Of a DNA stretch of 64,000 bases, positions 6,075-56,096 are shown one piece after another (the stretch's first letter is position 1; each line of letters opens with the position of its first letter). Below the pieces are notes generated by a model. That model saw only the letters and a program-made list of their open reading frames with translations. It was not told the origin of the DNA and made no database searches. Position numbers and translations under genes: made by a program. The stretch is from Octopus sinensis (taxonomy: Eukaryota). The DNA lies in contig NC_043000.1 in NCBI RefSeq assembly GCF_006345805.1, positions 87,606,001 to 87,670,000 of the forward strand, read 5' to 3'.

Positions 6075-6270
6075 TTAGTTACTGCACGCATTTTTTTCTC
6101 TCCTTCTTTCTGTGTTTTTTTCTCTCTGTGTATCTTTCTGTTGAAGAGCGTAGGCTCGAAACGTTAAAGACTTGTTTTATTTATATTTCCTGAGCGCCAT
6201 ACTAATACAATTGTTTGTTTGTTTCCCACCTGCCTTCGTCTTTTGTCTATTTTCATAAAGCTTCCCGTTA
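6075..6270 (+). mobile_element. PLE pLTR module, family A (copy 1)
   Basis: Near-identical to 7681-7865 and 55899-56096; ends in (TA)n; carries HHR motif. Confidence 0.75.
6133..6170 (+). ncRNA. Minimal type I hammerhead ribozyme variant
   Basis: TCTTT-CTGTTGA-A-GAGC gtag GCTC-GAAAC-GTT-AAAGA: stem I TCTTT/AAAGA, stem II GAGC/GCTC, palindromic ACGT stem III. Confidence 0.6.
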
Positions 6271-6355
6271 TATATATATATATATATATACACATGTATA
6301 TATGTGTACATATGTATGTATATATTTATATATATATACATGTGTATATGTATAT

Positions 6356-7525
6356 ATTTGAGGAGATTCGTTATAGGTATAAGAACATACCATAAACAAG
6401 TATAAAATATGGAGAAAAGATGCTGCAACAGAAATAGATTTATTATAAAACTGGATTCAATGCATACGTTCGTTTCGAAAAACAATGTAAAAAAAGTAAG
6501 AAAAAATTTGAATCATAATAATTATAATTATAATTGAAAATAGAAAATTAAAATTGAGAATAAAAATATAAATTAATATTTAATTTATGCATTGCCATTC
6601 TCGTCAGTGAGGAATCTTTTGAAGGATATCAAAAAAGTTTAATAAGATAAAGTAAAATGAGATAAAAATAAAATAAAATAAGATACAAGAGAACACACAT
6701 GAGGCAATAAGGGAAATCGAGTAATTTACAAACCAAGTTGTGAACGGAAAAATAATGATATCAACAATAATAATGGTGAGAGAGACGAAAAATAAAAATT
6801 AAAATATATCAATGTGTATGCAAGTGTCTATGTGCAGTGAAATTATAACATAAAAATCTAACGGATGTGTTTAAAAAAATAATAATAATAAACACCGTTC
6901 TAGACGAAGTACAGTGTAAAGAAGGCTACCTGTGTTTATTAGAGTACAATGTAACAATTTCACTAGCATAAGAAAAACATAGAGGGTTATACGTATACAT
7001 AATAATATTATTGAAAAACGAGTAAATATATATATATGTGTGTATTATTTACCAGGAGCTTAAAGCTGATGACCAAGACTATGTTTGAGAATAAAAGCAG
7101 AGACAAAACCCAAGTTTTTTTCAAAGAGAGACGGCGATTAAAGAGAGCGTAGGCCAGTGTATTCAACAGAATTTCTCAACTCAAAGAATTTGCCAGGGGT
7201 AGGAGAGGCGATTGAAAAAAATCGAAAGATAAGAAACAAAGACGAATATATGAAGGAGAAAATATATATTAATTCACATTTTATTTTTTATTAATTAATT
7301 CAGAATTTTATTTAAAATTTTATTCTTAATTTTAATTTTTTATTTTCAATTATAATTATAATCACTATGATTTAAATTTTTTCTTACATTTTTACAGTGT
7401 TTTTCGAAACGTACGTATGCATTGAATTCAGTTTAATAATACATCTATTTCTGTTTCAACATCTTTTCTCCATTTCTTTATACTTTTTATGGTATATTCT
7501 TAAACCTATAACAAATCTCCTCAAA
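6356..7525. mobile_element. Truncated PLE with inverted pLTR arms (about 6356-6580 and 7300-7525)
   Basis: Diverged inverted repeat of about 220 bp; left arm starts right after a TA-rich tract; both arms carry GAAAC-N4-GTA; interior may be a decayed GIY-YIG end. Confidence 0.65.
6454..6616 (-). ncRNA. Hammerhead ribozyme with 124-nt stem II domain
   Basis: Minus strand: GATTCctca-CTGACGA-GAATGGCAATG...CATTGTTTTTC-GAAAC-GAAC-GTA-tgcattGAATC. Confidence 0.6.
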
Positions 7526-7680
7526 AATTATTTTCATATTCTTATTACCTGTTTTGGCTGATTTTCATGAATATGATAAATACTTATTAGAAATCACCTT
7601 TTCTCTCTTTTTGGATCCCCCAAAAGTTTGAATAGTTCTTTCTGAACATAACTTTGCTCACATATATGTGTATGATAGAC

Positions 7681-7865
7681 CGTTAGCTCCTACACACATT
7701 TTTTTCTCTCCTTGTTTCTTTTCTGTGTATCTTTCTGTCGAAGAGCGTAGGCTCGAAACGTAAAAGACTTGTTCTATTTCTATTCCTGAGCGCCATACTA
7801 ATACATTTGTTTGTTTGTACTCCACCTGCCTTCGTCTTTTGTTTATTTTCGTAAATCTTCCCGTT
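7681..7865 (+). mobile_element. PLE pLTR module, family A (copy 2)
   Basis: Matches 6075-6270 and 55899-56096; followed by long TA/TATG tract. Confidence 0.8.
7730..7767 (+). ncRNA. Minimal type I hammerhead variant (CUGUCGA core)
   Basis: TCTTT-CTGTCGA-A-GAGC gtag GCTC-GAAAC-GTA-AAAGA. Confidence 0.7.
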
Positions 7866-8413
7866 ATATATATATATATTATATATATATATATGTGTGT
7901 GTATGTATGTATGTATGTATGTATGTATGTATGTATGTATGTATGTATGTATGTATGTATATATATGTGTGTGTATGCATATATGTATACATGTATATAT
8001 ATATATATATTATATATAATATATATATATATATATATATATATATATGTGTGTGTGTGTGTGTGTATACATATATGCATATATATTTATATATATACAT
8101 GTATATATATATGTATACATATATGTATATATATATATATTTATATATATGTACATATATACCTATATGTATATATATATACATATATATATATTTATAC
8201 ATATAAGTATATATAATTATATATATACATGTATATATGTATATGTATATATATTTATAAATATATATATCTATATATATATATATAATATATATATATG
8301 TATACATATATGTATATATATATACATATATATATATATATATACATATATATATATATATATATATATATATATATATATATATATATATATATATATA
8401 TATATATATATAT
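7866..8413. repeat. Compound (TA)n/(TATG)n/(TG)n microsatellite
   Basis: Direct reading. Confidence 0.97.
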
Positions 8414-8456
8414 GGGGGTGTCTCAGCGTTTGCAAATACGCGTATATCTGCTGTAA

Positions 8457-53920: not shown

Positions 53921-54940
53921 GTACGTACGCCGCTATATATATATAAAGAAAAACAAGGACGGGTCATTCGGAGTTTTCTTTCCAGATTATCTTTGCAATT
54001 TCGGATGGTTATACTCTAGATCGCTCCAATCTGGCCAGCCCCAAGGAAAAACTAAGCTAAGAGCATATATATATATATATATATATATATATATATATAT
54101 ATATATATATATATATATATATATAATCACATAGTTCTTTAAAGAATATCATTATTCTTTGCAAATAATGTATATTGTATGCAAGATTGAAGATCTATTG
54201 AGTAAGAATGAAATGAAAGATAGTGAGAAAGGAAAACTGTGATCTAGAAAATAAAGGCTGGGAAGAAAGAGAAGTAAAGGGGAACATAATTAAAAGTAAA
54301 AAGCGAAAAACGAAGGAAGACAGATAAGAAAGATTGTCGTTGTAGCATGAAAAGGCCGATATTGAGATTTGAGATTTATGACAAATTAATGAATTAAAAA
54401 AAGGAAGAAAAAGAGGAACGATCTTGTGATGCTATCGAATGAAGATGTGGAAACAATGGAAAATAAATGTAGCATGAATAATCATAGCGGAAACCGTACA
54501 AAAACATAACAAATTAGGAAAAGAGAGTAAGATACGGAGAATAAAGGAGATGATGAGCATACGTAATTAAAAAGAAATAACAATAACAGAGCCTTTAAGC
54601 AGTCATGGTATTGCATTGTTAAGCCGAAAAATTAAACCTAAGGCCAAAAGATAACTAGAACGAGAAGGAAGAATGCTAGAGACTACAGAAATAATTATGA
54701 AAGCTAAGAAAGTAAAGAAGAAGAAGAGGGGGTGGGGAAAGAGAATAGCAGCGAAGATAGAATAATCCAAAATATTCGTTTCATGTTGGAAAACATTTAA
54801 AGATAAAAGGAACCTCTTCATCCGCGCATATATATACATATACATATAAATACATACATACATACATACATACATACACACACACACATACATACATACA
54901 TACATACATACATACATACATACATACATAAATATATATA

Positions 54941-55337
54941 TATAATATAAAATCCGTTCTGTGTGTGTGTGTGTGTGTGTGTGTGTGTGTGTCTTCTAGG
55001 ATCTCGAGCATCCTCCATCCGATTGCGCTCAAATTTGACATGTAGATACCAACGGTATCAGGGCGTGTATAAGTCTTGAAAAAATTACAAAAATCGATTC
55101 CAGGTGAGAATGTGATCGATAAAGCCGTGGGAACGTGCATTTGTAAAATTGTTTTTCTTGGAATAGAAAGAAGTTTATCTTTATTTCTTCTTTTGCTGGT
55201 GTCTCAAATTTAGGTTAAATCAGTGTTTTTCAAAGAGGAGGCCTATAGGACGGTCGGACAAGTTGTTTTGAGAAAATTTGGTTTAAATGTTTGACAACTC
55301 AGCACCGTCCATTGGACGGGGGGCGTTTTGCTCGTAT
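54941..55337 (+). mobile_element. Non-autonomous Helitron-like element, copy 1
   Basis: 5' TG/TCTG tract, CCGATTGCGCTCAAATTTG, 3' hairpin CCGTCCA-t-TGGACGG then GCTCGT; no TIRs. Confidence 0.6.
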
Positions 55338-55429
55338 ATATATATATATATATATATATATATATGTATATATTATTTACAAGGTGAGCAAAGGTGTACG
55401 TACACCGCTATAAGTATATATAATTTTTT

Positions 55430-55850
55430 TTTAAAAACGGAACAAGAACGCAGCAGGTGACAGCAAAAACATACGGACAGATAGACGATACAAAGTCAGA
55501 CAGGAAAAATCAGGACGGATCATTCGTGTCCCTCTATTCATCAGTCAAGCTTCCAATCATTATCATAGTGTTTGTAATCGTGTAACATTTTCTCCGTTTT
55601 CTCGGTTTTTGTCCGTGTTGTCGTACAGGTTCGCTTGCTTTCTCCCAAAAATGTTATACTCCTAGCTTAGATTTTGGAGGCCTACCAATTTTAAACAGTC
55701 TTGAGTGTGACAGACCAAGGCTGTGATGATGATTGGAAGCTTGACTAAAGAATAAAGGACCACGAATGATCTGTCCTGGTTTTTCCTGTCTGTCTGTGTC
55801 GTCTATCTGTCCGCATGTTTTTGTTGTCTGTTGCGTTTGTGTTCCTTTTT
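55430..55850. mobile_element. Family D module with inverted arms (55430-55570 and 55720-55850)
   Basis: Diverged inverted repeat between (TA)n tracts; CTGATGA on the minus strand near 55537-55543. Confidence 0.65.
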
Positions 55851-55898
55851 TTTTGGTGGGGGGGGGGATATATATATATATATATATGCCATAATAGA

Positions 55899-56096
55899 TC
55901 GTTAGCTCCTACACGCATTTTTTTCTCTCCTTGTTTCTCTCCTTGTTTTTTTTCTATGTGTCTTTCTGTCGAAGAGCGTAGGCTCGAAACGTAAAAGACT
56001 TGTTCTATTTCTATTCCTGAGCGCCATACTAATACATTTGTTTATTTGTACTCCACCTACCTTCGTCTATTGTTTATTTTCGTAAACCTTCCTGTT
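55899..56096 (+). mobile_element. PLE pLTR module family A (copy 3) with HHR at 55961-55998
   Basis: TCTTT-CTGTCGA-A-GAGC gtag GCTC-GAAAC-GTA-AAAGA, identical to 7730-7767. Confidence 0.8.

What the first reader, a model, noticed from the sequence alone, without database searches (positions are those of the whole stretch)
6133..55998. Two sister HHR families covary in stem I; one carries a non-canonical A6U core and both an extra A10
Family B (47983) reads GTTT-CUGACGA-A-GAGC-ucc-GCUC-GAAAC-GUA-AAAC. Family A (7730, 55961, 6133) reads TCTTT-CUGU[C/U]GA-A-GAGC-guag-GCUC-GAAAC-GU[A/U]-AAAGA. Stem I shows a compensatory G-C to C-G change and loop II varies freely, which supports a real structure. 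All three family A copies share U at the normally invariant A6, so it is a family trait and not random decay. An extra A between A9 and G10.1 is known from the CChMVd viroid hammerhead. A family amplifying with A6U suggests either a tolerated core variant or a role other than fast cleavage.
Basis: partly seen in the sequence, partly recalled or inferred. Interest (0 to 1): 0.75.

Follow-up and report, generated by a model that had tools for sequence, protein, structure and literature searches.

The report
Penelope hammerhead with fixed A6U core
A jumping gene with about 15,000 copies in this animal genome carries a hammerhead-shaped RNA motif in which one normally fixed core letter (A6) is U in nearly every copy while the rest of the motif has stayed unchanged, so it is likely a slowed self-cutting RNA and offers a natural test of whether such elements need to cut their RNA.

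Summary
The four motifs are minimal type I hammerheads (palindromic ACGU stem III) at the 3' end/pLTR of Neptune/Nematis-type Penelope-like retroelements. A6U is a family trait: U 14,893, C/G 390, A 172 in one 25-mer context. On a tree of 93 copies, 0 of 30 constrained hammerhead sites changed at lineage level against 69 of 147 flank sites; inside the motif only N7 and H17 changed, the two positions a hammerhead leaves free. The fold was therefore kept after U6 arose. The extra A is a published hallmark of Penelope hammerheads, not a viroid oddity. Loop II differs between families but is invariant within A. Family B is not a clean canonical control: about half of it carries U4C. No cleavage footprint was found at 5' ends in either family. 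Best reading: a slowed, dimer- or protein-assisted ribozyme; cleavage is untested. I found no paper on a natural A6U family (one key paper was unavailable). This scan noted the same variant before, on other DNA of this genome and in another genome.

The parts
6133..6170 (+). Family A minimal type I hammerhead, core CUGUUGA (U6, U7), extra A, stem II GAGC-guag-GCUC, GAAA, palindromic ACGU, H17=U; predicted cut after 6165
5745..6268 (+). 5'-truncated family A 3' UTR/pLTR remnant carrying the 6133 motif, ending in (TA)n (start approximate)
   Evidence: homology to L002, L016, L024 upstream
7730..7767 (+). Family A hammerhead, CUGUCGA (U6, C7), H17=A; predicted cut after 7762
7672..7865 (+). Short family A pLTR stub holding the 7730 motif, (TA)n behind
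7787..7791 (+). Downstream UGAGC, shared by A and B, predicted able to pair with the stem II 3' strand plus G12 (possible off-state helix)
55961..55998 (+). Family A hammerhead, CUGUCGA (U6, C7), H17=A; predicted cut after 55993
55888..56096 (+). Short family A pLTR stub holding the 55961 motif
47983..48017 (+). Family B hammerhead, CUGACGA (canonical U4/A6 sub-lineage), loop UCC; predicted cut after 48013
47922..48119 (+). Short family B pLTR stub
45831..45865 (+). Decayed family B hammerhead (CAGACGA); falls in the C4 clade of the tree
52713..52750 (-). Decayed old-subfamily A hammerhead (CUGCUGA, C6)
53397..53865 (-). Broken linker zinc-finger-like motif and GIY-YIG endonuclease of the parent element, upstream of the 52750 motif through a 3' UTR of about 650 nt
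   Evidence: 72-85% identity to the L304 protein

Best explanation
The motifs are minimal hammerheads in the end repeats (pLTRs) of Neptune/Nematis-type Penelope-like retrotransposons, and family A carries U at position 6 throughout, which likely makes it a slowed ribozyme that would cut only as a dimer and probably with help from the element's protein. Shown: the motif, its place in both pLTRs of full-length elements 3.8-4.6 kb apart, family-wide U6, and no lineage-level change elsewhere in core and stems. Inferred steps: (1) a transcript spanning both pLTRs brings two motifs together, and their ACGU palindromes form stem III. (2) U6 lowers the rate, as other changes at A6 do, but leaves G5, G8, A9, G12-A15 and the cut site in place. 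(3) Slow cutting is tolerated, perhaps favoured, because copies end about 110 nt downstream of the cut site and most run 5' across it, so the RNA that is copied must be uncut or rejoined there. (4) Occasional cutting at both sites and joining into a circle would explain why the two pLTRs of one insertion are near-identical. The sister family's U4C looks like a second, independent weakening of the same CUGA turn.
For: U6 is fixed: 14,893 U, 390 C/G, 172 A. It is U in 74 of 74 scorable copies of a sample anchored outside the ribozyme (76 of 95 copies retain the motif region). No other letter reaches 2% at 7738 in 4 of 4 public contig sets labelled as four organisms. Constraint continued after U6: lineage-level changes at 0 of 30 constrained sites against 69 of 147 flank sites (Fisher p 6e-8) or 15 of 40 3' flank sites (p 6e-5). 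N7 changed 5 times and H17 switched A/U, never to G. No reading frame stays open through the motif. The parent has RT, DKG, a CX4CX2C linker and C-terminal GIY-YIG, with a U6 motif in both pLTRs in 8 of 18 junction loci fetched. pLTR pairs differ by 0-7 mismatches within an element against 3-21 between elements, and share private variants in 4 of 8. Literature: A6C is natural and slow but active (PMC3088659, PMC7151607). U4C keeps in vivo function in a viroid (as cited in PMC3088659). PLE hammerheads are slow dimers and protein-assisted (PMC11167929).
Against: Cleavage was not measured. Scanning mutagenesis reports low activity for single changes in the CUGA turn, with no rescue by a second change except the C3-G8 swap (PMC9901934 passage; the A6U value itself was not seen). 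There is no pile-up of 5' ends at the cut site: 48 truncations there against 27 at a control site (1.8-fold, patterns not fully matched); 1 of 28 full-length junctions starts within 2 nt of it; family B gives 26 in its first 100 rows. Hammerhead mutants of a Poseidon element still insert in vitro. Loop II, the extra A and a 19-nt 3' stretch are also invariant, so some constraint may be protein or DNA binding. The folded dimer scores far worse than misfolded alternatives in ViennaRNA, and stem I is poorly populated in longer context. Matching pLTRs also follow from template switching or gene conversion.
Confidence: 0.58

Rival explanations
1. The U6 motif no longer cuts. The fold or sequence is kept for another job in the pLTR, such as a binding site for the element's RT-endonuclease, a template-positioning structure or an internal promoter.
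For: No 5'-end pile-up at the cut site. Cleavage is dispensable for insertion in vitro and no RNA ends were found at the site for another PLE (PMC11167929). Loop II and other non-catalytic stretches are equally invariant. Two sister lineages fixed different core-weakening changes. In the oldest subfamily position 6 is non-U in 19 of 100 copies against 4 of 90 at other U sites (p 0.003), suggesting position 6 is relaxed.
Against: The only two variable sites among 37 are N7 and H17, and H17 avoids G. The chance of hitting exactly these two is 0.0015, or 0.03 if any two of seven nominally free sites count. That is the signature of the catalytic fold. One B clade has canonical U4 and may have reverted from C4 (moderate support).
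Confidence: 0.25
2. U6 is compensated (by a loop II/stem I contact, the extra A, Mn2+ or the protein), and the ribozyme is about as active in the cell as A6 relatives.
For: Family A is the larger family (about 15,000 exact copies against 3,219 for U4-type B). Loop GUAG is invariant. A6C regains near-normal rates in Mn2+ (PMC7151607).
Against: No compensating double mutant was seen in the CUGA turn in scanning data. No covarying partner of U6 was found inside the motif.
Confidence: 0.1
3. The ribozyme is dead and unconstrained: A6U hitchhiked in one successful master copy, and the apparent conservation reflects few masters.
For: Copy number reflects the success of masters, not selection on each copy; tip-level changes hit the motif almost as often as the flanks (2.5 against 3.3 per site).
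Against: Many successive subfamilies changed nearly half of the flank sites but none of 30 motif sites. U6 is shared by old and young subfamilies and by four organism labels.
Confidence: 0.07

Closest known systems
Minimal type I hammerheads (min-HHR) of metazoan Penelope-like elements (Cervera and De la Pena 2014, PMC4209133; seen: main text parts 1-2 of 4, supplement file 2 part 2 of 3)
   Same: Type I topology, short stem I, extra nucleotide between 9 and 10.1, G10.1-C11.1, palindromic 15.2-16.2 with no loop III, place in both pLTRs, mostly single truncated copies.
   Different: Published consensus CUGANGAH; every alignment row I saw has A6 (their descriptor fixed it), and the core variant they report is U3-A8. 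Here A6U (family A) and U4C (about half of B) are lineage-wide. Stem II is 4 bp, shorter than in many of their examples.
Natural A6C hammerhead of phage Bcep176 (PMC3088659 section 8 and passages; PMC7151607 parts 1-2 of 4)
   Same: Natural pyrimidine at position 6; slow but detectable cleavage reported.
   Different: A single phage motif with C, against about 15,000 retroelement copies with U in a dimer-dependent motif; activity is untested here.
Poseidon PAc hammerhead of Anolis (Frangieh et al. 2024, PMC11167929; parts 1-2 of 4)
   Same: pLTR hammerhead; insertion at AT-rich DNA; template largely uncut.
   Different: Different PLE clade; ORF overlaps that motif, whereas no frame stays open through this one; no A6 change described in the parts read.
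Neptune/Nematis EN+ PLEs (Craig et al. 2021, PMC8557442; passages and supplement search)
   Same: Single ORF with RT, DKG, CX2-5CxxC linker, C-terminal GIY-YIG with internal cysteines, (TA)n targets, partial tandems.
   Different: These two families' motif strings were not found in that paper's supplement; Neptune and Nematis were not told apart here.

Membership tests
Hammerhead ribozyme (type I, minimal) | Stems I and II flanking the core, covariation or conservation of pairs | tested here: met
   Stem I 4-5 bp with C-G/G-C swap between A and B and G-C/G-U within B; stem II 96% paired but invariant
Hammerhead ribozyme (type I, minimal) | Core C3 U4 G5 A6 N7 G8 A9 | tested here: not met
   Family A has U6; about half of B has C4; met by the copy at 47983
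Hammerhead ribozyme (type I, minimal) | G12 A13 A14 A15.1, U16.1, H17 not G | tested here: met
   No lineage-level change; H17 A or U in A, U/A/C in B
Hammerhead ribozyme (type I, minimal) | Site-specific self-cleavage after H17 | not testable with these tools
   Only contig data were served; the genomic 5'-end footprint was inconclusive
PLE min-HHR | Extra nucleotide between 9 and 10.1; palindromic 15.2-16.2 | tested here: met
   A in 75 of 76 copies; ACGU; consensus
PLE min-HHR | Located in both pLTRs of an RT-EN element | tested here: met
   8 of 18 junction loci fetched hold two U6 motifs around the ORF
Neptune/Nematis EN+ PLE | RT with DKG, CX2-5CxxC linker, C-terminal GIY-YIG with internal cysteines | tested here: met
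   ADKGG, CSRPRCRTC, YCVSCSLC..YIGQT in L302/L304; Pfam RVT_1 and GIY-YIG weak, below cut-off; homologues carry PF00078 and many PF01541; definitions. Family B: one deleted, frameshifted locus at 30-47% identity
Neptune versus Nematis | RT phylogeny against named references | not tested
   No named reference proteins were in hand
Hydra-clade PLE | DKT, CxCX5C linker, no CCHH | tested here: not met
   Family A has DKG and CX4CX2C
Non-LTR retrozyme | Non-coding tandem units each with a type I hammerhead | tested here: inconclusive
   The families are ends of coding PLEs; one 4-unit, 510-nt array has a divergent last unit, which fits DNA-level duplication better than rolling-circle copying

The most novel reading that the evidence does not exclude
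Penelope-like elements actively tune their hammerheads down. Lineage-wide A6U and U4C in the uridine turn give a ribozyme that is silent alone and cuts only when the element's own protein (or Mn2+) completes the active site, with a downstream YGAGC helix as an off-switch. U6 would then be the first natural, high-copy A6U catalytic core and evidence for a protein-gated, circle-forming step in PLE replication.
Probability: 0.2. Interest if true: 0.8.

Novelty: new variant of a known kind. Interest (0 to 1): 0.5.

Why it matters
The role of the hammerhead in Penelope-like elements is an open question: it is nearly universal in them, yet slow and dispensable in an in vitro insertion assay. A successful lineage that lost A6 but kept every other constrained position, beside a related lineage with both U4 and C4 branches, is a ready natural comparison set for asking whether cleavage is needed and how much. 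It also shows that descriptor searches fixing CUGA miss the most abundant families.

Tried and rejected
Coding constraint: N7 is a valine wobble position in one frame, but that frame stops at or within 10 codons of H17 and the other wobble positions are invariant; rejected. U6-specific inhibitory helix (U4.G16, G5-C15.2, U6-A15): present mainly when N7 is U (P 0.4-0.5), absent when N7 is A or G, and natural A6 copies form other misfolds of similar energy; not a general explanation. A6-bearing family A copies as a surviving ancestral subfamily: the 30 read are scattered over all N7 classes and look like later mutations; no A6 ancestor found. Cut-site 5'-end test: inconclusive in A and B; B had no matched control or exact denominator. 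RNA evidence: no RNA holder listed; only contigs were served. A general search for other U6 families was mis-built (5-bp stem) and returned 0, which says nothing. Generality of the downstream helix: absent in one unrelated family found in the loci. PDB sequence search: 0 hits. Atlas search unavailable. The repeat finder was swamped by microsatellites. Papers not held: Lunse et al. 2017 (PMC5785218), Ambros and Flores 1998, and one structure review.
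Full report
Observation. The four strings are present as described. Each reads as a type I hammerhead: stem I 4-5 bp, core, an extra A, stem II GAGC/GCUC, GAAA, then C-G-U-H, so stem III is only the palindrome ACGU. Two more decayed copies lie at 45831 (+) and 52713-52750 (-). The window lies in G000, a 2.72-Gb, AT-rich, microsatellite-rich animal genome; its repeats recall those of an octopus (recalled, not tested).

Position 6 across the genome. In the context CTG-x-N-GAAGAGCGTAGGCTCGAAAC there are 14,893 copies with U, 172 with A and 390 with C or G (89 C and 11 G among the first 100 listed). 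U is 96% of 15,455, and the remainder has the spectrum of later mutation. To avoid selecting on the core I anchored on a 19-mer about 60 nt downstream (17,835 matches) and read 95 distinct copies from the first 100 places. Of these, 76 retain the motif region (19 dropped as truncated or deleted), and U6 is in 74 of 74 with a letter there. Public contig sets labelled as four organisms show no other letter at 2% or more at U6. Within 7735-7767 only N7, one CpG in the loop, H17 and a 4% G>T in stem I vary. An older subfamily is also mostly U6 (81 U, 14 C, 5 A of the first 100 of 773). Its excess of non-U over other U sites (4 of 90) is significant, so position 6 looks relaxed rather than specifically selected for U.

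Constraint after U6. From 135 tail-bearing copies, 93 reach at least 30 nt 5' of C3; the 3 A6 copies among them likely come from three loci I had fetched as A6. On their tree I counted changes shared by four or more copies. Result: 0 of 30 core and stem sites against 69 of 147 flank sites (p 6e-8), or 15 of 40 in the cleaner 3' flank (p 6e-5). N7 changed five times among all four bases and H17 between A and U. Tip-level decay is similar inside and outside the motif (2.5 against 3.3 per site), as expected for dead copies. The 5' flank is low-complexity and inflates the first count. Loop II, the extra A and the 3' anchor are invariant too. No reading frame explains the pattern.

Parent element. 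Six of the first 60 loci have GIY-YIG sequence upstream of the motif, as does the window at 53397-53865. [quoted passage not shown] By the definitions in PMC8557442 (passages) this is Neptune/Nematis type, not Hydra, Naiad or Poseidon. In 8 of 18 junction loci fetched, U6 motifs sit in both pLTRs, 3.8-4.6 kb apart. None had a single unbroken ORF; the longest stop-to-stop stretch is 975 aa. The two pLTRs of one element differ by 0-7 of about 210 positions, against 3-21 between elements, and share private variants in 4 of 8 (three 5' of the cut, one 3'). The pLTR-to-body junction is the same in 27 of 28 loci. This fits copying one pLTR template twice, as on a circle, but also template switching or conversion.

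Family B. There are 3,219 copies with U4 fixed by the pattern; 98 of the first 100 are A6. Unselected data changed the picture. T>C at U4 makes up 51, 51, 69 and 62% of depth in four contig sets. In the loci, 15 of 29 copies not selected on the core read C4, 9 are canonical and 5 are decayed (many came from loci chosen for indels near the cut). In a tree with positions 4, 6 and 7 masked, C4 occurs in the basal B clade and in one of two main clades, so canonical U4 may be a reversion (support 71-97). B has its own Neptune-like coding remnant at 30-47% identity to A, seen at one locus of 59 examined. 'Sister' therefore holds for the pLTR but is a distant kinship.

Does it cut? There is no direct evidence. 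5' truncations at the cut site number 48 (of the 100 rows listed out of 101; the rest are indels or duplications) against 27 (of 34) at a control site. The nominal p is 0.02, but the control pattern is longer and the effect small. Family B gives 26 in the first 100 of 111 rows, similar per copy. One full-length copy of 28 starts 2 nt after the cut. Most copies run across the site, so the template was uncut or rejoined there. ViennaRNA gives stems I and II for the isolated motif with unremarkable z-scores, prefers misfolds to the double hammerhead, and in longer context pairs the stem II 3' strand and G12 with a downstream YGAGC shared by A and B (class means mostly 0.2-0.7). That helix is a lead only.

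Literature. PMC4209133 (parts 1-2 of 4; supplement file 2 part 2; file 1 not searchable) describes this architecture, including the extra nucleotide, dimer dependence and low activity. PMC3088659 (section 8, passages) and PMC7151607 (parts 1-2) report natural A6C, under 0.1 per min in one study and rescued by Mn2+ in the other, and cite U4C as viable in a viroid. PMC9901934 (passages) reports low activity for CUGA-turn mutants. PMC11167929 (parts 1-2) finds a PLE hammerhead protein-assisted and dispensable for insertion in vitro. PMC6765202 (passages) and bioRxiv 10.64898/2026.07.22.740005 (part 1 of 5) gave context. Nine full-text searches, read as listings, showed no natural A6U hammerhead family. 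Lunse et al. 2017, the largest survey of these variants, was not available and could contain it. The CChMVd extra A is recalled; PMC4209133 cites such a case.

Earlier scan notes report the same A6U family on other DNA of this genome, A6U lineages in another genome, and U4C families in several. I tested only this genome. If the other-genome notes hold, the change is recurrent.

Verdict. A real, family-wide core variant of a known kind of ribozyme in a known kind of element. It most likely works as a slowed, conditional hammerhead (0.58); a non-catalytic role is the main rival (0.25). It fails the strict CUGA membership feature, but the rest of the motif evolves like a hammerhead. Interest 0.5.

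Noticed in passing
window 28201-28271 (-): A different type I hammerhead (UUGACGA core, i.e. U3 with G8; stem III ACUAGU) just behind a PLE RT fragment at 28134-29100 that is 76-81% identical to the family A protein.
   Followed up: no
window 6354-6576 and 7307-7523: Inverted repeat of about 220 nt, 89% identical, between the two family A copies; a PLE-like RT thumb fragment lies at 9164-9640 (-).
   Followed up: no
family A and B copies, about 75-85 nt 5' of C3 (e.g. window 7672, 55888, 47928): Short copies often begin near a conserved ATG; in A it opens a four-codon ORF (MLIR, MIDR, MLDR and variants in about 70 of 157 copies), in B ATG-TGA. Possible transcription start or uORF.
   Followed up: partly
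L299:3600-5400 (G000:C5) and L317: Small tandem arrays of pLTR plus 5' UTR with U6 motifs, periods 440-660 nt; retrozyme-like layout, last unit divergent.
   Followed up: partly
L038:2470, L049, L292: A third hammerhead family with canonical CUGAUGA core, extra A and a long stem II (GGCUG...CAGCC).
   Followed up: no
L361, L303, L089, L300: Family B stubs inserted directly into the (TA)n tail of family A copies, so the families nest in each other's targets.
   Followed up: no
window 10574-12247 (-), 50084-50938 (+), 16109-16489 (+): A 557-aa LINE-type RT frame and mariner-like transposase frames, named by eye from recalled motifs.
   Followed up: no
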